DNA of 64,000 nucleotides from Trichoplax sp. H2. Taxonomy: Eukaryota. Location: the NCBI GenBank assembly GCA_003344405.1, contig NOWV01000169.1:1-64000 (forward strand), written 5' to 3'. A program made the translations under genes and the position numbers. A model generated the notes under the pieces. That model saw only the letters and a program-made list of their open reading frames with translations, had not been told where the DNA came from and did not search any database. Below, in pieces: positions 841 to 15,876 of this stretch (position 1 is its first letter; every line of letters starts with the position of its first letter).

Positions 841-1200
841 TATACTGTCTGTACACAGTGTACACTGTACAGTACAGTTGATTAATTAATTATAACTACT
901 GTGTTGATTAAACCTATAATTAATTAGTGCTGATGACAGTGATGCCAGACTCTGATATTATAATGTAGTGTACAGTATACTGTATGCTTTATGAGCAACT
1001 AGAAAAAGCCTGGACTTTTTCTAGTGTCCATGATACTGTACTTTACAGTACTGTACATTCGTATACTGTACTGTACAGTACAGTACAGTACGCTAGCAAA
1101 TTTTACTTTGTACTGTGTGTACTGTAGCGTACGTCAAGAACACCGTGTCACCAAGGATACAGTCCTCAATGTTATCCATCTCTTCTATGTACTGTATAAA
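841..1200. repeat. CAGTA/CTGTA cluster in the SLCO/Apaf-1-like divergent spacer
   Basis: e.g. GTATACTGTACTGTACAGTACAGTACAGTAC at 1061-1091. Confidence 0.9.
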
Positions 1201-1352: not shown

Positions 1353-4300
1353 ATGGATAATTTCGAGAAACAAGCAATAGAAGACTACAAGGAACGAATA
1401 TGCCAATCAGTTCCGATTGAATTCATCCAGAACGCGCTAAGTGGCATGAATATTAGTGATAATCACGATCTGTACGCTCTAAACAACACCGCAATTAGCA
1501 CTGATAAAAATGAAACAAAATTAAATGAAATTCTTCAGGCACAAGATAAAAATACCTTTAAACGCGTTGTAGCCATTTTAAGAGAAATAAATCAACTGAA
1601 TATTCAAAAATTAGCAAATGAATTAGAAGAACACTGTCAGTCTTTACGAACTGGTAAACTGGAAGACGCAGGCATACAACAAAAAAAGAAATTTTCAGCG
1701 TTTGGCTTTTTAGGTGAAGGTACAGTGAGAGCTCTTGATAGGAAATCCTAGTTATCCTTCTCGTGCAACCACTACCGTATATATACCAGTAGTATCCCTG
1801 TTAGATACTATGTAGAATCAAAATTATATTGATACAACATAAAAAATCAGATTTTGTTATTCAAAGTTTAAGATGAATATGAACTACAGTATACAAACCA
1901 TTTAACCATAGCATAATTAAATTCGATTTCTCATCTTCTCTGCATTGTCCGGAATTAACAAGAGAAATAAAATATTACTTTCTTCATATTTTTAGTCTAC
2001 GACATTTTACTATACTAACGGATAGATCATTAGAATAACCATATTATAATAACTACGTTGAACGAGTGAAGTTCGTCGGCGAAAATGTACCCAAGCCAAG
2101 TATATTTAATACTCATTTAACTTTTTTTATTTTTCCTTAGCTCGTAAATTATATATAACATTCCTCATTTTTATTTTTATTTAAAGTATGGTAGAATAAG
2201 CATTACTTACCGCTAATTACACTCCATTCGCAGCAGGGATGTATCTATACAACTCCATATGCTTTGCGCGCTAATAATTTATAAAAAGAATCGATACGTA
2301 ACTGTAAATTAATGTATACTGTATACTGGAGTACTACTTTGCAGTTAATTGTCACTAAAAACTGTTTAATCCCAACAACAAACTTCTTTTGCTAAATTTT
2401 AGTTAGGACTGCATTACAGCAGTTTTTATTCTCCTACTCTTATCAACTACTATTAAGTCACTTTCACTCAATCACTATCATGAACGCACCTCCGCCTACT
2501 TCAGTATAAAATGAATACCAACAAATAAGAAATTCATAATCAATTTCTATAGCATTTAAAAAACATTTATTTCAAGTAAATACTGAAAATGATTAATCTA
2601 TTCTATTTGGTACCTTGGAAAGTATACTTGTAGTATCGTTATAAAATCAAAGGTTTTGTAAGTTACTTCTTTTAATTACATGAGATCTTACAATATGCAG
2701 CTTACAACATTGACCACCTGTTGAATAGAAACAAACAACTAAAGGCAAACCCTATACTAAGGATAATGGTATATGTCCTTTGCAGATTAATGTTAGAAAT
2801 GAGTCAGTACGTGGATTCTTCGATTAAAAATTACTTAATAAATTGCAATCGCTATACTAATATGTTATTATTGCTATAGTTTTAAGATTATTTAGATAAT
2901 TATGATAATGCTCATTTATTACAGGATTTATGCGTAAAAATATGTATGCTTTTGTTATGTATCTATGTTATCATCTTAGGATAATTACTCCGAGAGTAGC
3001 TAGTAAAAATCGATCATTTTATTCATTAAGCTGTGCTTATATACTTCCACTAATGGCACAATATTCTATCATGATACGCGAACTTTACTAGCTAAATTTA
3101 GGGCTATGATGTGGGCTATGCTCTCTCACATTAGTTAAATCTTACGCAACCATATTAAGAGTTACAGACGATTAATATTAAATCTTACATACTCATCTAA
3201 CTTACTTTATAATTGTAATTACTTATTCTTTACAATACTGTACATATATCAGCCTTCAATTGTGGACTTTTTAATTTTATTCCAGAATCACATAAGATAC
3301 CTGTGATTGGACAAGTACCAGTGCTACCTGATAATATAGTAGCTCGAGAAAAAATAAGCAAAAAATTAAGCGGTTTACTTCAAATAGCTCTTAAAAATAG
3401 AAAGTGCGTTGTTGTCCATGGTGAAGCTGGTTGTGGAAAGACTACTGCAGCTTATTTGACTCTATTTGTAAACGATCTCAGTTTGGCTAACAAATTGCAT
3501 AAAGGAGGTGTCATCTGGATAAAGCTAAGTAAGTAATAAACTATTGGTAAGCTGGTAAACATTACGACAGTATAATAGCTGAGATAATTACGTCACTACT
3601 TACTAGGTGATTTGATGCAATTGCAGCCCCTTCGCTAAGTTGAAGCTCTAGACAGAAGTATATTAGTATATAACTGCATAATAGACAAGGAGATAATGAT
3701 TTGTTAATCTACTAGCTAAGATCATGTTTCTACTATATATTGTGAAATCTAACAGAATAACTTTGTGAGATAGAAGCCACTTATTTAAATTACAACTGTA
3801 AGATGCTTATGAAATGTAATAGAAAACTTTAGAGAAATGAAGACCCCTAAAACTGAGATTATTACGCAATGCAGGGTTTGCTATTAGTAAAAACACGGTT
3901 CGTTTAACAACTTTAAGTATTCACGAGTTTAAAAATCATAGCTTCCTAAGTTTGTCCAATATACCCCATCTAGAATGATTTTTTATGGGCAAATACTATT
4001 ATCTTAATTCTAGATCAATTATTATTAGTAAATATCAGGACTTTTTCATTGCTACTACCACTTCATATCGATAGCTAGGCTAAATTAATTAACTTAAATA
4101 ACGTAAATTTGCCTATAAAATTCAATAATTGTAACAAGAAAATCACTAATATAATTGGTTTTCACATTAAGGGCTAAATTCACTCAAATAATACCTAGTA
4201 GATTGCTTTTTCTAGTCAGAAAGGATCAAAATTAAATGAAAGTATAGTACATCATTACAGTCCGAAAATCGACATTATTTTTATAAGTATAAGGTTTTGT

Positions 4301-7300
4301 AGCTTGGTATTACGCATTCTAAACGCCTTTTAAAATTCGTACGACCAATACCTGTTTTTCGAAATAATATAAAATCCAGCTCACTGTGAGAATGATTATT
4401 GCTTAATCTTAACTTGTACCTGCTATTTATGAAAGATTATAATGTTTTAATTGTCTCCATTCATTGTAGGTAATTCAAATTCTGCAGAAATCTTGCTTCA
4501 AATGCAACACCTACTCACCTCGATTTCAAATGATGAATCTCGTCTTCCGTCAACTATAGAGGAATGTAAAAATCAAATATCTTGCATCATCGGTAAAATT
4601 TTACTAGTACGGTCGATATTTTATTACGACTTTAATTTATCTTGATGATGCATAATAATTTAATACAACAGTTTTATTACTTCTTTGAAATGAATAATTT
4701 TAAAAAATTGTTATTTACCGTCTATGACTTTCCTCTTGAACGAATAAGCAGCTGAGCGATACAATGGCATCCTCTTGGTTTTAGATGACGTACTAGACAA
4801 AAATTTCATTAAATGCTTCGACTTCCATTGCGCAACGCTGGTTACTTCACGTCAGCCTGATATTGCTGATAATACTTACGAATCACCTAATTTGTTCGAA
4901 GTTGAGGTATTACAATATAAACTTATATTAGCTGATGGATCGGTCATCAAACCAGTAAACTTCTTTCCTAAGTTACAGATTAATGATGTGCTTACGGTAT
5001 CACATAGTATACGTCTTGTTGCATGTTATGTATCCAGCTGAGGACAGTTTCTAAAAATATAAAATTAGGCCTACAGAAATCTCTACTTTATTCAGTGCTA
5101 GCTTCTTACATACTGTATCCGATATCTCACTATTGTTATGTAATTGGCATACAAGTTACAGTTACTTTGCTATCGCTCACATCGTATACTGCTTCATGTG
5201 CGTTATAATTTCTCCAAATAATATCTTATCTTTAACACTATCCTTACTGTCTTCCTACACATAACATTGCACGTCGTTCATCTACAGTAGTTGTATTTAT
5301 CGAATTAGGAGTTCTGAACAGACTAGCTGAGAACATTTTTATATTTATTTGCGTAGATAAGAGTCTACAATCATATTGGTATGATAGTTTGTCAGTCTCA
5401 TTGATTTCACGATAATTGATTTGATTTTAATACAATTAGTGTACTCCTAAAAACAGTTTAAAAATATTAAGTATCTAAGTACTTAATTATATTACGTAAA
5501 CATGTAGCCTAACTTTATGCCACCCATATACCAGCACAGTAACTAAACGAATTGTCGTAGCTGAGAAGCAATAATTTATAAATATTTATTGTTATACTGT
5601 ATTATTTCATAGTTTTTCGCTACTAACAGATCTTATAGGATAAATTAATTAGATCGAGAAAACTAGAATCCTTATTTACTTAGTAACAAACATCTATTAG
5701 CTCTGTAACTCGGTAAATGAAACCCATTGGTACGTAAGTACCAGCTTAATAACCTTTTGCGTCGTGATACGATTAAGGTGTAATGTAACGAATCGAAAAT
5801 TGCATGCTGTAAATACTCTAATTGCAAACCGAAGTTTTAACATTTCTGCTTCAGTAATCACATCTCATAACCGCGAAATACTTTCACATACGGACTAACA
5901 ATCATCTGTCACATGATAGTAATACCAGAAGTTCCAAAACTTAAGTATCTGTCAGACCATTACATAATCCTGTATCTTACTATTATAGCCTTTCCAGATA
6001 AATGAACTAAAGGAAATCATTCTTTACGATTTGGAATCTGTCTCGGAAAAAGAAAACTGCATCACAACTAAAATGGCTCGTATATTGGAATATTATCATA
6101 ATCTACCAATCTGTTTAAATTCTCTCCGTATTTTAAACCTAACCAATTCTCAAGAGGTTAATCGTCATCTGCTTGCGTTAGGATCGAAAATAGATCGCGC
6201 AATGGGTCATAACAAAACTCTTCAAACAACTTTAGATTTTATTATTCGATCGTTAGACGAAACCAAAAGATCCCATTATCAATTGTTAGTTGTATTTGCA
6301 AATAGCGACAAAGTTCCGATTACAGCAGTGTCATTATTGTGGTCTTTAGATATTAAAGTCATAAAGAAAATGTTCGAAAATTTAGTCCATGGTGGTTTAA
6401 TGATTAAGATAATCGATACAATAAGGTAAGGTATAGCGAGTTAGTGTTATGAACTAAACTATCTGACATAGTTAGTATTGCAGTATAAATTGAATTTTAC
6501 AACAGAACAATTAGAATAACTTCATTACACAGGAGAATAACAATTTTTTATGTATGCGGTTACGCTGAATCTAGTCAATCTACTATCATTAATTCTTAGA
6601 TACTTAGCAAAATAGGCCAATGTTTCAGGGCAAGAAGAAAGTTTGCTTATTGACTCAATCTCCACTCAAACAAAAGATAACTAGGAAAATCGCGGGATCA
6701 TGCTAATGAGCAAACATTTCTTCTCACCCTGAAGCATTGGCCAATAAAATGTCATCAATCTTGACTGCTATCAGTTTCACTAATTCTAAGATATATTATT
6801 CTTGATTACAACAACATCCTTATTTTTAGTGGCAATAGATATTATCGACTTCATTCTGTATTCTGTCATTATTTATTGGAAAAGTACCCCCATGCAGTTG
6901 GATTTCATCGTAAATTAATATCTCATTACAAAGAAAATTGTCGCGATGCTTTATATCAATTGGCAGATGATGGTTACATATATAATCATATTATTGTTCA
7001 CTTACTCGCTGCTCGCGAAGTTAAAACTATTAAAATGTTATTAACTGATCCAAAATGGTTGCAATCTAAACTAAATATGACCTCCATTACGCATGTCCTA
7101 AATGACTACATCAAATGTCGCCAAATACTGAATGATCAGGTATGTTATATTATATTCTGATAATAGTGGTTATAATTGTACTTACCGTCTGCTAACTATA
7201 CCTTCAATATTATATATAATAGCTTTTATTAACTCGTATTCACATTTAGTATTACTGCACATTTTGATTTGATTTAGGAATGGCAAGAAGTGAGTCATTT

Positions 7301-10300
7301 TTATCGATTTTTATCTGCCAATATGAACATATTACTTCGTACAGACCGGCCAACTTTGGCTCAGTTATCCCTGAGTAAAACAGAGTGGCAAGTATTTTCT
7401 AAAAAGGCTAGAGATTTAATAAACAAAAATGATACATCGACAATCTATGTTGAATGGATGTAAGTATGATTAATACCCATCTATGATCCTAGTCAAGTAT
7501 TTAATTTTTTAGCTAATTATTCTAGTTTGTATATTGAAAATATAGTAATGCTTAAATCGTATCATCGCTGAATATATTACAGGAATAAAGAGGCAATAAC
7601 TAATAGTGATGATTCAATCACTACTGCTTATCTACATGAAGGTGCAGTAAGCGACTGCCGCTATTCCTGTGATGGTAGAAGGATTGTTACATCTTCATGG
7701 GATGGTATTATTAAAGTATGTAGTTAACAATTAAATTAATACATGATTTGCATTGTATGAGAAAAAGTATCACACTTCAATAGTACGCCGTAATGTATAA
7801 AGCGCACGTAACATATTGATTTACGCTATTATGATACTTTACTTAAATATTAATAACAAGGTTTGGGATCCAATCTCTACGGCTGTGTTTGTACAATTTC
7901 ATGGTGTACATAAAATATCTTGCTGTTGTTTCTCACCTAATCGAAGATATGTTGTAACTGCCTCGTGGACAGGAACTGCACAGGTAAACATATTCTACTG
8001 ATAACTGTGAATAATGGAAGTGGATGAGACGCTACATTCTTATTGGTGTTATAGTCATAACTATTAACAAATTTTTAGGGCTCATTAGATCGTGCTAAGC
8101 TGTTCACTTTAGTTAATTAATTAACTGTTGAGTATGCTGTAAAATTCCCCAAGACAGCTGAAGTTTCGCATTATTCGCACTGTCTAGTTCAAGATAATAC
8201 TCCTATTACTAATACGTGCGCTATGGCACTGTTTAATAACTGTTATTGTGCGTTTATCCATGTATTTCTAGACTAATACATCTGATTTTACGGCTTATCC
8301 TGTTCCATTGTAATTACTTATTTCAGAACTTGCTTGAGACACAAACGAAAATGTTAAAACTGCATCCGCTAACAATTTTTTACTTAAGTATCTAGACTTA
8401 GTAATTTATAAAATATGATGTTTACGTATAGGTCTGGGATATTGAGATGGAGAGATTACACCTCGAGTATTCTAACCACTCCGATAGAATATATTGGTGT
8501 GATTTTTCACCAGATGGTCAATACATTGCGTCTTGTTCCAAAGATAAAACGATTAGGGTAGGAATTTTTAACCGTATAACATAGGTATACCATGAGTGTC
8601 CAAAAATCTTTTAGATGTAAAAATAGAGGCGTTAAGATTAGGTAACTAGTAACTGTATCCGTATTTTTATTTTAATTTATAAGCTAATATTTAATAATAG
8701 TAATTGACCTAAAACTATTATTCAAAAAAGATATGTGATTTTATCCGCTATTGATAACTCAATATTTGTTCAAAAGATTTGGGATTGTATGAATGGAATA
8801 GATATTATCACCTGCCGAGGACACAAAGACGGCGTTCTTCAATGCCGTTTTAATTACAGTGGCGATAAATTAGTATCATGTTCCTCTGATTCCACCATTA
8901 AGGTCTCGATAAATTTACTGCATAAACATTGTCTATCAAGTAATTTGAGATTTGATCCTGTAATGTAATGTCATGATTTGATTTATAGCCTGATATCGTT
9001 CAGTCTATCTTAATCACACACCTTATTGAATGACCACTACAGATTTGGAAAATTCCAGTGGCTAAAGTAATCCTGGATTGTGTATGTCATCGTCAGGATT
9101 CAAACTATAGGATAACATCATGCGCATTTTTTAATGATGACCAGGCGATCTTATGCACTTATCGCCAATTTGTCCACACTTGGAGTTGCGCAACTGGTGA
9201 ACCATTATTTCAGTTGAAATGTTTTGGTCCGATAACTGCATCAGCTCTCTCTTGTAATAGTAAATACTTAGCTGTCAGCGTTAGGGGCAGCAATGCTGTA
9301 CAGGTACTTGTTAATACTGATATTTTGGGGTTAATTCTCGTATTTAATATTATAATTATATCTTCTTACGTACCACAAACCACCACTTAAATTAATTGTA
9401 ACTTATGAATGTGTTCTTTGTAATAGTACGTTATATTGTTGTAACGAAACTTACTATTGTGATTGTAGACTTTTAGCTGTGTTAGTGAGACTAGTACAAA
9501 CTCACGTCGCTTTGCTGACGGTTTACGATAATGTACCCATTTGTTAATAATTAACAGATAGTATTACCATTTGACATTATATATATCCCGGTAATAGCCA
9601 GGCACTACTACATTCACAGCTATGCTTGTAGAATACTACTTTTCAATAATGCATTCACGGATGAAATGCTATGAAATGTTATATTAAGATTAGTTAATGG
9701 TCCAAAGCACATAATTATAACTAATGTACGGCGATGGACATTCCAAGTTAAGATTAGCAGGTACTGTAAGATATCTACAGTGCGGTACAATGTCCTTAGT
9801 CAATAGTTGTATTCGGCTAGAGTAGAGCTGTGTGTAGCTAGTCTTTGTATTAGATCTAATAAAGTTCTAATTTTCTACAACTTTGGAATTTTCGTGATTG
9901 GATTTTATCACAATTGATTATGATATAACTTATAGTCTCAGATTGTACTACAATCAATGAATCTATTCTTTCTTTGTGTAGGTTTGGAATCTAAGCAATC
10001 AGAAACAAGTTGCTTTCTATCGTGGGCATACTGACTATACGCAAGCCGTCCACTTTGCCCCTAATGGCAAGACAATTATATCAGCATCGGACGATAAGAC
10101 CGTCAAGTTTTGGAGTTGCCAAATTGACTTAAAGAATACGGTCCATGTTCGATCTAAAAGGATGCAATTTAAGCCAACACCATTTGAATGTAGATTTGTT
10201 GATAATATCATGCACGCTTATTGCATTACAGAAAGCAATGGCTACCAATTAAAGGTAAATTTATCAATATTACACTGAGTCTGATACAAAATGATAAAAG

Positions 10301-13300
10301 CACCCATAAATTGATACTAATACTTGATAATAATGTATATTCTCTTCAATCCGTTGTCAAAATTTTACGCCAAAACTTCAGTTTATATTGCTAATAGATG
10401 TAAATTAAGGTGGCCTTTCATGTGCACTTACACTATATAGTAGTATGTATATGCATCAGTACCTGAAATCATGTCGCAAGATGGAAATAAAGACTTGCAC
10501 TATATAATCCACCGGATAAAATCTTTGCCATATTCTACAGAAGAAATTAGATTTAATGTTGCAAAACTTGAAGGATTAGACTCTAATTGCATTATAACTG
10601 TAGATTCAAGTGATGCTCTTTCTTAAACCTTACGTCTATTTATAACTCAGTTTCAGATATTGCAATATTATACTGTACTATTGACTCCTAAAAATACTTT
10701 AAACCACTGCATTTATGACAGTGTCACAAGAGCCACTAGAATGGCTCTCCTAAAATTTTAGGCTTTTTTACAGACTAGTGATCACTTGCTCCTGGTATTT
10801 CTATACAAAAAAACGTTATATTCGTCTGCTTAGTAAATCTAGAATTAAAGACTTTAACTTAAAAAAACATCAATAGTAGCATACATATATTTCACCGACA
10901 TATAGCATTAGCTGATTGTGGTACAACTTGCATTGAGCAAGAAGCTGACATAGTCTTCTAATACCTTCTCTTGCAGCATTTTATTGGATCTGATTCTAAA
11001 TTAGCTTCAAAGTGTGAGAAATTCTCTGAATTAATATGGAAATGTTGCTTATCTCAAGATGGATATAATATAGCCGTTGGATTGTATAATGGAGAAATTA
11101 AAGTAATACATATTTACTACTTTTTGCAGATTTTCATTTATTAATATAAATCATATATATAATCACGAGAAACCTACGAGCGCATATAGATGGAATATCG
11201 TAAGAAATAGTAAGCGTGTAGACTAATGTTAAATATTTATTTGTTTTTATAATTTACTATTTATAGTTACTATCTGCAAGCAATCAGCAAGTCATTTGGT
11301 CAGAGAAACCAAGCAATGAATCGGTGGTTTCGTTTTTATTTACTGACAGAGGGAACAAATTACTGGTGGTATACGAGACAGAAATATACGTATGTCGGTT
11401 AAATATGAGTGAAATGTGAATAAACTTAACTAATAAAGTATTAACTAGCAATTACCCGCTGCTAACATTCAACCTTACAGTTAACCTTATCTTAAAACAT
11501 TTTACTACACCTTATCAAGATCTCTGGCGCGTGATTTTGTCAAATACCAGTATAGAATCAAATATCTCTATGAGCTTCTATTATACCAACAAATGGCCTT
11601 ATGAAGTAGAATGCCATCAAGTTAGCATCATTAGTCTTTGTTATATTACGGTAGTTCTTCATTATTTATCAGCTATACAGTCGAACCTAGATTCTCATAG
11701 TTCATTTGAGAAGGAAATTATTTGTAATCCGTCAGTAATCGGCTGGTACACTGACCAATACGATAAAAAATTAAACTCTATGCAGTATAACGTAACAATC
11801 TTTCATATACAGTCTAAACACTGTTCCTCACTTATTTCCGTTCTTATATATGATCATTGTATCATGGGAGTATTTGATTAAACGTGCATTTAGAAAATGA
11901 CCATTGACCAGACTGTACATTTATCTATCTATCATCGTTTTATAATTTTTCTGTTAATTTTCATTGACATGATGACTATCCTTTAGATTTTAAGCAGAAG
12001 AAACGGATACCTATTAGGTAAAATTTCCAAGTTATGCTCTGTAATAAAACGCTGTCTGCCAGTAAATGATAAGCTGCATAAAGTTATTTTGGCATTTAAG
12101 AATGGAAAATTACAGGTAAACCAGCTTATATCGAATTAAAATGTAAAACAGGCAATTGCATAACCACTGTACTTACAAGATTAAGTACAAAAGTTTAAGA
12201 TTCGCAAATTATATCAACCGATTTAAATAGACGTTATACTGTAATAAATTCTAAATACTGTTTTACTGTAGTGTCACTCTACCAGGCTGTATATAATCTT
12301 TTGTAACCCTCTGGATTTCACTATTGAAATACTTGTGTTCCGTAGGAAATATCTCCTTGTCTTGCAATCTCAGCTAACCGTATTTATTATATTTTTACTT
12401 AGAAGTAGTTTCTAGGAAATTAACTATATTAAAGTACTGAATTTGCAATTATCGTGTAAAGAGTTTGTATACAAAGAGATTATTTATAATCTTTATATGC
12501 ATATACAGTACGGCGCAACATGTCACCGAATAAAAGCCATGAAAAGAATTAATATAGTGTTTATATGTTGGTAATCATTAGCAAATAATTTATTTTTTTT
12601 GTGTTTATATGGATGTTTAATGTAGATGATCCAGTTTACTAATAATCAAGTGCTTTTGGAAAAGAAAGCACATAAGAACGGCATAGAAATTTGTGAAATA
12701 TCACCAATAAGATCATTCATTATTACTTCAGCCGCAAACGGAGTAGCGAAAGTAAGTGTGACTGCTGGAAAGTTCAATATGTATAATAGATTATAAATTA
12801 TTATTGACGACAAATTTTTACAAATAATACATATGATAAGAGTGCTGTACTTTAAGAATTTAAAGTTAACAACTATATGGTGTAGTTCCTGTTTTGTATG
12901 ACCACAACTTTATTGTGCTAGTAAAACGTCAAAGTGCTATGCAACTCATCGCTGCTTAAAGAATACTCATCTTATATATGCTTACGCTATCTTTAAATGT
13001 ATATTGATCTGCATAATGCTAAATTAGTTATACCATGACTATACACAATTACACAATAATTACGCAAGTGTAGATTTTAATAATGCTATTCACTCTACTT
13101 CCTATTTCTATTGAATACAAATGATTTATAGCGCCACGAAGAGGCTTATGAGTTACTCTGCCTGCTTACATGGTTCAGCAGGGAAGCTAGAATTTAACTC
13201 AAATTAAGCACTTTGAACCATAGTTGAGTGCTTCTAACTATCCTGCAAATGATAATCATTAAATGGATTATTACGTACATTAGTGAATTTAGTTTCTCTA

Positions 13301-14132
13301 TTAGAAAATTTAAATGCTTACACCATGGCATAATATATATCTCGGCAATGGGATTAGCTATCTATTCATAAAGTAACGAATAAATTGAAAATTTGCTGTC
13401 TATAATGCTTTTGTCACTACAACGTCATTTCTGCTTGATAGCGTCAGCGTAAATATGTTAATATATTATACGTTCGTTTATATAGGGACTTGCTTCATCT
13501 CAGAATTATCGTATCTTTGATACTAATTTTTATAATCTTACATTCTTGATCTAGCTTTGGAAGTCTATTTCCTTAACTAACATTCATAATCTACGTCATA
13601 ATTGTAAAATTACTTGTTGTTCCTTCGCTAATTTCGCTGACCAAGTGGCAATAGGATGTGAAGATGGAACTATAAATGTAAAAATCTTTCCTTGTAACAT
13701 AAATATTACTTTTATGCATCTTCTAATATACAGCACAATTAATCAATCATTACTGATTTATTACAATTTAGGCTAACGTTAGATTTATTTAAAATGTTTT
13801 AGATATGGAACATACTTGATGGTTGCCAGATACTTAAATTTAATTCTCAATATACTGCTATTCTTAGCTGTCATTTTTCGCCTGATGATCTCATAATTGT
13901 AAGCACTGGCGATTCAGTTATTTGGTGGAACGCAATTGACGGTATCATAATACAGAATTTTCCTCTTTATGGAAAATCTTATGATATTAAGTTTTCATCG
14001 GATTTCTTACAATTTTTTACAACCGATACACGCGGCTATATGTATGCACTAGCTCCAACACAATCATTTAGCAACTTTGTTAGAAAGCCCAATTCTCATT
14101 TACAGCAATCCAAAATGTGCTCTGTATTGTAA
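1353..14132 (+). CDS. APAF1: Apaf-1-like protein (CARD, NB-ARC, helical domain, WD40 repeats), about 19 exons
   Basis: In-phase GT-AG exons, approximately 1353-1719, 3286-3528, 4470-4592, 4749/4752-4906, 5989-6425, 6830-7139, 7278-7459, 7583-7715, 7861-7983, 8432-8557, 8777-8902, 9043-9303, 9982-10254, 10977-11102, 11267-11389, 11987-12115, 12626-12751, 13555-13677, 13803-14132. N-terminal CARD-like helical segment, Walker A GEAGCGKT (3420), Walker B LLVLDDV, sensor LVTSR, the Apaf-1-typical DDGYIYNHIIVHL...LTDPKWLQSKL, then many WD40 repeats (e.g. CDFSPDGQYIASCSKDKTIR). Could be a paralogue rather than the 1:1 orthologue. Confidence 0.88.
9491..9613 (-). mobile_element. Helitron-like element, 3' part, within an Apaf-1-like intron
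   Basis: The reverse complement matches about 40250-40372, including the hairpin and CTAG|T. Confidence 0.75.
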
Positions 14133-15714
14133 TAATATTATGCATTGTTGCAATATCTGTATAAAATAGTGATTGCAAAACTGTACACATTTCTATCAAA
14201 TACTATGCAGAATTCACGATTGACTAATGTATGTTTACGCTACGATACCTACACTCGGTTCAACGTAACAGATGGCATCATATCGCTAAGTCTTACTGTA
14301 CATAAAATACTCGGCATAATTTGCTTCGTAAGCCGTTTATTTGTATCCATGATATGTATCGTACACAGTGTACGTATTTCCTACAGTATGAAGACCATCA
14401 GCCACCGATCCACTTGTATACTTAACGTAAGACTCGAAATAAATTAATAATACTGCATTTAGATAAGGAATGCTAATTTTGATAGTTCAAATATCTACGT
14501 GCAATGATCTAGTAATGTCTTAACAGATAATATCGGAATACTGTATATTAATTACAGTATTTATTAATCAATTTCTTCTATAACGTAAACGATATTGGAC
14601 TACTGTAATTGACAACAAAATCACTTACATTCTTATGCAATGTTTATATTTATGACATTATATTGAAAGAATCTGACTAATTTTATATAGTTCTAAATTA
14701 CTATGATTAATACATAATTAATTGATTATTATTCTTTATATAATTATTTATATATTAAAATGATTGCCTACAATGTGAGTATACGTACGAGATTTTGCTA
14801 TAGGTACTTATTGTTCTATAGCTAAGTTATTTAATTCCTCGAGTTAATAATTAGTAATATAAAAAGCTATATCGACAACTATTTAATAATAATTTTATTC
14901 TCATCTCTACCCGAAATAAAATTAAGTTACAAGAGTGCAAAGTGTGAGAACCGATTGAACACTTAGTTTATAAATATTAGATTGAATTAATTAAACGTCA
15001 GCTTCCTTTCACTTTTATTCCTGAACCAAGCGTTCGAAATGGCCGCATAATCTGGCAGAGCCTAGTTTTCATATCCGTTAAAATACTAGTTCTCTCGCGC
15101 ACATCTTAACTCGCATGCTTTGGAATGCCTATAACTTGCTGGTATTACCCACTAATTAACATTAAGGTGATGAAATGATTCGTCTTTCTTTTCTATCGTA
15201 TTATTCGATCGGAGTCGAATGACAATCAGAATATTTAGCTGAAACCGTCCTAAGAACTTTATGTAAGGTGGTGGGGGACTACCGCACAGTGCAATGTAAT
15301 CAGATGTGATAATGACTGTAATAGATCTTGAGGTTGACCCGTGATACTTTTCATATAATATAGCTAGTGCTTTTCTACTACAGTAGTTAATTAACTTTAT
15401 TTATTGAGGCTTGAACTGTACGTACTGTACGTTAGCAGAATAATCAAAAGGCCGTGTAAAGCAATGCCGATGAAGTATTACTTATCTATTATACATAATT
15501 AATTATAATTAATTATATTATAATTATCAGACATGACATTACGCTACGGTTCGGACTTAGTATTATTATAACTATACTGTACACATACTGTACACTAGTG
15601 AGTGTACAGTACTGTACTTTAATCGTTATTCGCGACTTAGAGTACTGTATCTCAGAATGCAGACCGTCACAGTATGCGGTACGTCTATACTGTAGTACTG
15701 TACAGTGTACAGTA

Positions 15715-15876
15715 CTAGTCTAAACTCCTGTCGCTTTGCTGACGGTTTACGATAATGTACCCATTTATTAATATTTCGCCTTTCAGATCGCTGACTAACT
15801 GACATTATCCTCTTAGAAACACTTTTTGTTATATGATATATAGCAATCAAAATAACCGGGACAGGGAACTACAGTA
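15715..15876 (-). mobile_element. Helitron-like element, internally deleted copy
   Basis: The reverse complement matches about 40086-40190 joined directly to about 40314-40372, ending CTAG|T. Confidence 0.75.

What the first reader, a model, noticed from the sequence alone, without database searches (positions are those of the whole stretch)
14055..14132. Apaf-1-like protein ends in a CaaL geranylgeranylation motif (…QQSKMCSVL*)
Seen: the last exon reads ...FSSDFLQFFTTDTRGYMYALAPTQSFSNFVRKPNSHLQQSKMCSVL-stop (Cys codon 14118-14120, TAA 14130-14132). Established: human APAF1 ends right after the homologous last strand (…DNLGILYILQTLE) and is soluble, and C-a-a-L termini are GGTase-I substrates as in Rho/Rac GTPases. 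Inference: a ~22-aa extension with a prenylation box could tether this apoptosome/STAND scaffold to a membrane, a mode I do not know for Apaf-1 proteins. The upstream polybasic signal is weak (RK, K).
Basis: partly seen in the sequence, partly recalled or inferred. Interest (0 to 1): 0.75.

Follow-up and report, generated by a model that had tools for sequence, protein, structure and literature searches.

The report
Lipid-anchor tails on placozoan Apaf-1 copies
In the simple animal Trichoplax, two extra copies of the cell-death scaffold Apaf-1 end in a short floppy tail carrying a lipid-attachment signal, so they are probably tied to membranes, unlike the ordinary Apaf-1 copy, which has no such tail.

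Summary
Confirmed. The gene is a Trichoplax sp. H2 Apaf-1 paralogue (public model RDD38615.1, 1265 aa). It runs 22 residues past the end of human APAF1 into a disordered tail ending CSVL-stop. An older H1 model ends on another exon, which RNA contigs skip. New evidence against chance: a paralogue only 30% identical (contig C186) ends in a basic tail, KKKES-CIIC-stop, behind four RRxS sites. A third paralogue ends in a basic tail without Cys. These three group together in whole-protein trees (98/96 without tail columns; weaker on halves). The canonical Apaf-1, one more close paralogue and 20 divergent paralogues have no CaaX. Random frames in this DNA end in a classic CaaX 0.4% of the time. In a published yeast GGTase-I screen CSVL and CIIC both fall in the 137-of-8000 class typical of canonical geranylgeranylated boxes. 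GGTase-I, FTase and ICMT genes are in the genome. Most likely a small placozoan Apaf-1 subfamily is prenylated and membrane-bound: the window copy on endomembranes, the C186 copy at more acidic membranes. Not shown: prenylation, localisation, conservation in other placozoan species (none found in the databases). No report found in my searches. A new variant of a known kind.

The parts
1353..14132 (+). Apaf-1-like gene: CARD-like domain, NB-ARC, winged helix, helical domain, WD40 propellers, tail; equals RDD38615.1 (1265 aa)
   Evidence: Pfam on exons; P0152; best PDB matches are human and mouse APAF1, E 5e-102; 8 spliced joints inside the gene listed in RNA contigs
1353..1719 (+). first coding exon, CARD-like death-fold domain
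   Evidence: no Pfam hit; ESM Atlas lead to CARD clusters, score 0.87, a lead only; the aligned region of paralogue C186a hits Pfam CARD at 6e-6
13132..13197 (+). alternative last exon used by the H1 model TRIADDRAFT_58457 (no CaaX); skipped in RNA contigs
   Evidence: P0001 ends on this frame; joint 12751>13555 in X10 and X17 skips it
13803..14132 (+). last coding exon: final WD40 strands plus tail
   Evidence: a profile of five such exons aligns to the last residues of mouse and human APAF1
14064..14129 (+). 22-residue extension beyond the end of human APAF1; predicted disordered; R, K, K and no acidic residue
   Evidence: AlphaFold model of the exon: pLDDT under 50 and no secondary structure for residues 90-109
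14118..14129 (+). CaaX box CSVL
   Evidence: yeast screen row; predictor rows
14130..14135 (+). tandem stop codons TAA TAA
14438..14443 (+). first AATAAA behind the stop; possible poly(A) signal, unverified

Best explanation
A placozoan-specific subfamily of Apaf-1 paralogues gained a C-terminal tail that acts as a membrane address. In the window's protein GGTase-I adds geranylgeranyl to the Cys of CSVL on a disordered 22-residue tail (inferred), probably followed by trimming and methylation (inferred). The resting monomer then sits on the cytosolic face of membranes, most likely ER, Golgi or endosomes, since there is no strong polybasic stretch (inferred). The Walker A, Walker B and sensor I motifs are intact (shown), so it should still switch and oligomerise; an oligomer would carry one lipid per subunit and recruit CARD partners at that membrane (inferred from Apaf-1 knowledge, recalled). 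The sister copy C186a pairs a CaaX (CIIC) with a basic stretch and four RRxS sites, a design that suggests phosphorylation-controlled binding to acidic membranes (inferred). C186b keeps only a basic tail. The canonical Apaf-1 has no tail.
For: Tail and box real. Second CaaX in an intact 20-exon paralogue model, 30% identical. The three tailed genes form one branch: 99/97 on whole proteins, 98/96 with tail columns removed. CaaX in 2 of 3 tailed genes, 0 of 2 other close paralogues, 0 of 20 divergent last exons found, 0 of 2 outgroup animal Apaf-1s. Given the first box, chance of at least one more classic box is 0.8% among 2 genes, 1.6% among 4, 8.8% among 23; a classic box with 3 or more K/R upstream occurs in 15 of 20,456 frames. 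Yeast GGTase-I screen: 37 C scores 0.012 (CSVL) and 0.073 (CIIC), both under the 0.2 cut that holds 137 of 8000 boxes, mostly canonical geranylgeranylated ones (PMC11304957). 4 of 4 predictors call both prenylated (PMC9231725). CSVL is also the box of Rab18 (PMC2652301). GGTase-I beta, FTase beta, RabGGTase beta and ICMT genes present. Precedent: a CaaX-L box alone is necessary and sufficient to take OAS1 to the Golgi (PMC8357416).
Against: No orthologue from another placozoan species was found, so conservation of this Cys is untested. The two boxes differ at all three positions after Cys and the tails hardly align, so common origin of the boxes is not shown. The clade is weak on halves (65/53 WD40 only, 77/77 N-half), unresolved on NB-ARC with divergent paralogues, and its rows are long branches. 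C186b has no Cys. The yeast readout is indirect (depletion, low counts: 78 reads falling to 1 for CSVL). Cleavage of CSVL is predicted by 1 of 2 headline methods and 5 of 13 models, and its Ras-reporter score is low, 3.4 against 19.8 for CIIC (PMC10320760; table row only). Rab18 was assayed there with RabGGTase, a different enzyme. The last joint is not directly listed in RNA, and C186a's expression was not examined.
Confidence: 0.68

Rival explanations
1. The window's tail is neutral drift (a lost stop codon) that happens to end in a CaaX-like word; it may even be prenylated but this has no selected role. Only C186a's anchor, or neither, is functional.
For: The finding was picked because of the motif; 0.4% of frames end so and the family has over 30 loci. 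Weak basic signal. Tails barely align. Other paralogues have short variable tails. A hemichordate Apaf-1 has a 10-residue tail without Cys.
Against: The second box lies in one of the two closest relatives in the whole-protein trees, not among the 20 divergent genes; all three tails are basic and share a Ser-Phe pair before the basic residues (weak).
Confidence: 0.17
2. The lipid is real and selected, but serves protein binding or sequestration, not a signalling platform: a prenylated, membrane-parked paralogue that dampens the canonical apoptosome (decoy) or is held by a prenyl-binding chaperone.
For: The window copy has changed the GxP motif (NLP) and the winged-helix His-Asp pair (His-Ser); its CARD misses Pfam. 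An earlier, unchecked note reports another paralogue lacking NB-ARC in this genome. 14-3-3 extracts phosphorylated prenyl tails (PMC3690454), and C186a's end fits that paper's relaxed consensus, whose tested members bound weakly.
Against: Walker A, Walker B and sensor I are intact; His-Asn variants occur in a hemichordate Apaf-1 and in C563, so change at that position is tolerated.
Confidence: 0.1
3. The gene ends elsewhere in vivo (the H1 model's exon at 13132-13197 or another), so the box is not in the main product.
For: The H1 model P0001 ends without CaaX; the final joint is not listed.
Against: RNA contigs of two runs skip that exon; the H1 ending would delete the last WD40 repeats that align to APAF1; the H2 model ends CSVL; depth fits.
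Confidence: 0.05

Closest known systems
Apaf-1 (human/mouse APAF1, PDB 3JBT, 5JUY, 3SFZ) and the placozoan Apaf-1 expansion (Kamm et al. 2019, PMC6321704)
   Same: Domain order CARD-like, NB-ARC, winged helix, helical domain, WD40 propellers; best PDB matches; member of the published expansion of 12 or more Apaf-1 homologues among 39 NB-ARC genes.
   Different: 22-residue tail with CaaX; about 25% identity to other animal Apaf-1s; altered GxP and His-Asp motifs; that paper's main text has no 'prenyl' or 'CaaX'.
Prenylated innate-immune sensors: OAS1 p46 (PMC8357416), ZAP-L (PMC8568172, listing only), GBP1/2/5 (recalled)
   Same: A sensor family in which some forms gain a C-terminal CaaX that moves them to endomembranes.
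   Different: Those are not NB-ARC/STAND proteins; in OAS1 the box comes by splicing, here it marks separate paralogues.
Ras-family C-terminal targeting: Rap1A, Rnd3, K-Ras4B phospho-prenyl switches (PMC3690454); Rab18 CSVL (PMC2652301)
   Same: Prenyl-Cys plus basic residues plus nearby phosphorylatable Ser (C186a); identical box CSVL (window).
   Different: Attached to a 1265-residue oligomerising scaffold; phosphorylation not shown; Rab18 was assayed with RabGGTase.
Membrane-held NLR/STAND proteins: CED-4 held by CED-9, acylated plant NLRs such as RPS5, palmitoylated NOD1/2 (all recalled, no call)
   Same: A STAND switch kept at a membrane.
   Different: They use a partner protein, N-terminal acylation or reversible palmitoylation, not a C-terminal prenyl group.

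Membership tests
Apaf-1 family | NB-ARC with Walker A, Walker B, sensor I | tested here: met
Apaf-1 family | winged helix and APAF1 helical domain | tested here: met
   APAF1_C 6e-25; WHD 3e-4, under the cut-off
Apaf-1 family | C-terminal WD40 propellers ending on the homologous last strand | tested here: met
Apaf-1 family | N-terminal CARD | tested here: inconclusive
   no Pfam hit; Atlas lead 0.87; paralogue C186a hits CARD
Apaf-1 family | GxP and winged-helix His-Asp nucleotide contacts | tested here: inconclusive
   NLP and His-Ser in the window copy
Apaf-1 family | oligomerises and activates a CARD-caspase; cytochrome c trigger | not testable with these tools
   needs biochemistry
Canonical (orthologous) Apaf-1 of this genome | shortest branch and closest match to other animal Apaf-1s | tested here: not met
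   C1030 is 35-40% identical to jellyfish and hemichordate Apaf-1, the window copy 24-25%
CaaX proteins (GGTase-I substrates) | Cys four residues from the true C-terminus, a2 aliphatic, X = Leu | tested here: met
   screen and predictor rows
CaaX proteins (GGTase-I substrates) | flexible, accessible linker before the box in a cytosolic protein | tested here: met
   pLDDT under 50 for the last 20 residues in a model of the exon alone; low confidence suggests but does not prove disorder
CaaX proteins (GGTase-I substrates) | second membrane signal (polybasic stretch or palmitoylated Cys) | tested here: inconclusive
   window: 3 basic, 0 acidic, no second Cys; C186a: 5 basic and 3 acidic in the 15 residues before the box
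CaaX proteins (GGTase-I substrates) | Cys conserved in orthologues | not testable with these tools
   only H1 and H2 Trichoplax proteins found
CaaX proteins (GGTase-I substrates) | lipid actually attached; membrane localisation | not testable with these tools
   needs labelling and imaging

The most novel reading that the evidence does not exclude
Placozoans, which lack LRR-type NLRs (PMC6321704), turned duplicated Apaf-1s into membrane-addressed sentinels: one geranylgeranylated copy on endomembranes, where a resident symbiont lives in the rough ER (10.1101/568287, abstract), one prenylated copy released or recruited by kinase action on four RRxS sites, one held by charge alone, beside a soluble canonical Apaf-1. 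This would be the first prenylated apoptosome-type STAND protein I could find, assembling on a bilayer and firing on compartment-specific cues.
Probability: 0.3. Interest if true: 0.82.

Novelty: new variant of a known kind. Interest (0 to 1): 0.62.

Why it matters
Apoptosomes are treated as soluble platforms. A natural, lipid-anchored Apaf-1 would show that the scaffold can be wired to a membrane, and would give a first concrete difference in function among the unexplained placozoan Apaf-1 duplicates. It is cheap to test: a 25-residue tail on GFP and one Cys>Ser change. It would also add NB-ARC proteins to the immune sensors that gain a location through a CaaX box.

Tried and rejected
Orthologues in other species: three word-based protein searches (last exon, helical-domain exon, two-paralogue last-exon profile) returned only Trichoplax H1 models and unrelated WD40 proteins; a blank is weak evidence. 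The HMMER search of cluster representatives was swamped by WD40-rich proteins and gave only 2 animal Apaf-1s that I identified among 150 rows; 3 of those 150 have Cys at -4, about background. Run X18 (organism C) gave only short pieces and no usable tail. ESM Atlas on C186a's last exon gave generic WD40 clusters. The NB-ARC-only tree did not resolve the tailed genes. Last exons were not found for 8 of 33 fetched paralogue stretches (L047, L060, L061, L062, L065-L068; several are cut by contig ends), and two weak candidates near L050 end without Cys and are not counted. Other CaaX-like frame ends inside the fetched stretches were set aside because they are not homologous last exons. PMC11152559 does not mention CSVL or CIIC in its main text. 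Look-ups of earlier scan notes found no Apaf-1 plus CaaX note. No complex prediction was run, as no binding claim is made. The position of the C-terminus on the assembled ring was not modelled.

Full report
Observation. The frame 13803-14132 (+) ends in CSVL and two TAA codons, with Cys at 14118-14120. Upstream exons carry NB-ARC, winged-helix, APAF1 helical and WD40 matches. One exon is 100% identical to TRIADDRAFT_58457 of Trichoplax adhaerens. That cluster's other member, RDD38615.1 of Trichoplax sp. H2 (P0152, 1265 aa), matches the window's exons and ends CSVL. Its best PDB matches are human and mouse APAF1; residues 1095-1240 align to 1090-1245 of 1248, which leaves a 22-residue extension.

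Is it the true end? The H1 model ends on a different exon, 13132-13197. RNA contigs of runs X10 and X17 splice 12751>13555 and skip it. I laid 4 of 21 listed runs. The last joint is not among the 15 joints shown (38 hidden). X10's piece stops at the donor 13677, and its depth over 13525-14025 (18.4) fits coverage of the last exon (18.1) better than none (6.4). This is indirect. A model of the exon alone gives six strands and a low-confidence, unstructured tail, residues 90-109.

Paralogues. The genome has 38 matches to the APAF1 helical domain. Four other genes match the last exon. C1030, the canonical Apaf-1, ends at the last strand. C563 ends three residues later. C186b ends in a basic tail, RRNLRRK. 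C186a ends in four RR(L/I)SFD repeats followed by KKKES-CIIC. A spliced aligner gave stop-free models of all five (C186b's model lacks its first exon). I fetched 33 stretches downstream of the other matches and five more. Homologous last exons of the divergent paralogues were found in 19 of these and then 1 more; none of the 20 ends in CaaX. Eight stretches gave none. A jellyfish and a hemichordate Apaf-1 have no CaaX.

Tree. The window gene, C186a and C186b form one branch: 99/97 with ten proteins, 98/96 with tail columns removed. Support falls to 65/53 on WD40 columns and 77/77 on the N-terminal half. With seven divergent paralogues on NB-ARC columns the three are unresolved (the C364 model was left out as partial). 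Branches are long, so the clade is likely, not proven. The window protein and C186a are 30% identical. The boxes were either kept over that distance or gained twice; both imply selection if chance is excluded.

Chance. Of 49,394 stop-terminated frames in 470 kb of this genome, 200 end in C-x-[VIL]-[LMSQACF]; of 20,456 frames of 15 or more residues, 15 also have three or more K/R upstream. Taking the window's box as given, a second classic box has probability 0.8% among two genes, 1.6% among four and 8.8% among 23. The pattern was written after seeing both boxes; with a looser pattern (1.2% of frames) the figures are about 2%, 4% and 21%.

Substrate quality. In a yeast screen of all 8000 boxes without FTase, boxes scoring under 0.2 at 37 C (137) were mostly canonical geranylgeranylated ones (PMC11304957; section 16 part 1, passages, supplement rows). 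CSVL scored 0.012 and CIIC 0.073. The readout is depletion on low counts, so it is indirect. Four of four predictors call both prenylated; cleavage of CSVL is split (PMC9231725; supplement rows only). A Ras-reporter score is low for CSVL (3.4) and high for CIIC (19.8) (PMC10320760; supplement rows only); I read this as CSVL being a poor farnesylation box, which fits X = Leu, but I did not read the method. CSVL is the box of Rab18, assayed with RabGGTase (PMC2652301; passages). The genome has exons best matching GGTase-I beta (C852), RabGGTase beta (C197), FTase beta (C896) and ICMT (C630). Rce1 was not searched.

Mechanism. Shown: the tail, the boxes, the enzymes' genes, intact Walker A, Walker B and sensor I. 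Inferred: geranylgeranylation and membrane residence. With three basic residues and no second Cys, endomembranes are the likelier site; a CaaX-L box alone sends OAS1 to the Golgi (PMC8357416; passages). C186a resembles phospho-prenyl switches, in which phosphorylation near a basic prenylated tail loosens membrane binding (PMC3690454; passages); RRxS as the PKA consensus is recalled. Inferred from recalled Apaf-1 biology: oligomerisation would cluster several anchors and recruit CARD-caspases, of which H2 has two candidates (PMC6321704). The altered GxP and His-Asp motifs leave a decoy role open.

Known and new. The placozoan Apaf-1 expansion is published, with no mention of prenylation or CaaX in the main text (PMC6321704; passages; 30 of 40 NB-ARC places of supplement 4; its FASTA supplement could not be read). 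PMC10959488 has no 'prenyl' (passages). Full-text searches pairing Apaf-1, NB-ARC, NACHT, NLR or Trichoplax with CaaX or prenylation showed no report of a prenylated Apaf-1 or NB-ARC protein in the listings I saw (6 of 6; 32: 20 of 39; 52: 20 of 54; 73: 20 of 5,155; 79: 7 of 7; 94: 20 of 23). The library lacks most subscription papers. Prenylated immune sensors are known in other families (listing). The ER-dwelling symbiont is from 10.1101/568287 (abstract); any link to it is speculation.

Verdict. It is a new variant of Apaf-1, not a new kind of system. Confidence in a selected prenyl anchor is about 0.7. Orthologue conservation and the lipid itself remain untested. Interest 0.62.

Noticed in passing
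L032:1501-1881 (G000 C186:636397-636777, +): Paralogue C186a ends in four RR(L/I)SFD repeats, KKKES and CIIC: a stronger membrane signal than the window's, with possible kinase control. No database protein with this end was found.
   Followed up: yes
L034:1501-1812 (G000 C186:617768-618079, +): Neighbouring paralogue C186b ends in a basic tail without Cys and has lost the GxP motif and the winged-helix His.
   Followed up: partly
window 5989-6845: The window protein has NLP for GxP and His-Ser for the winged-helix His-Asp pair; this could alter nucleotide control.
   Followed up: partly
window 13132-13197: The RefSeq H1 model TRIADDRAFT_58457 uses this as last exon and so loses two WD40 exons and the box; RNA skips it.
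   Followed up: yes
window 1044-1092, 9490-9740, 15570-15770: High-copy TACTGTAC-rich interspersed repeats with very high contig depth and many loose ends; a shared stretch near 9505-9540 and 15730-15765.
   Followed up: no
L073:3-6648 (reverse strand) and L070 upstream of the C563 paralogue: A long low-complexity frame plus a multi-pass membrane frame (wolframin-like, recalled resemblance) and an EF-hand frame (MCFD2-like, recalled) lie upstream of the C563 paralogue.
   Followed up: no
P0051 (database protein, unnamed, 2483 aa): A WD40-rich protein ending in three Cys then VIS, a CaaX with nearby Cys; whether it has a STAND domain was not visible in the top 25 Pfam rows.
   Followed up: partly
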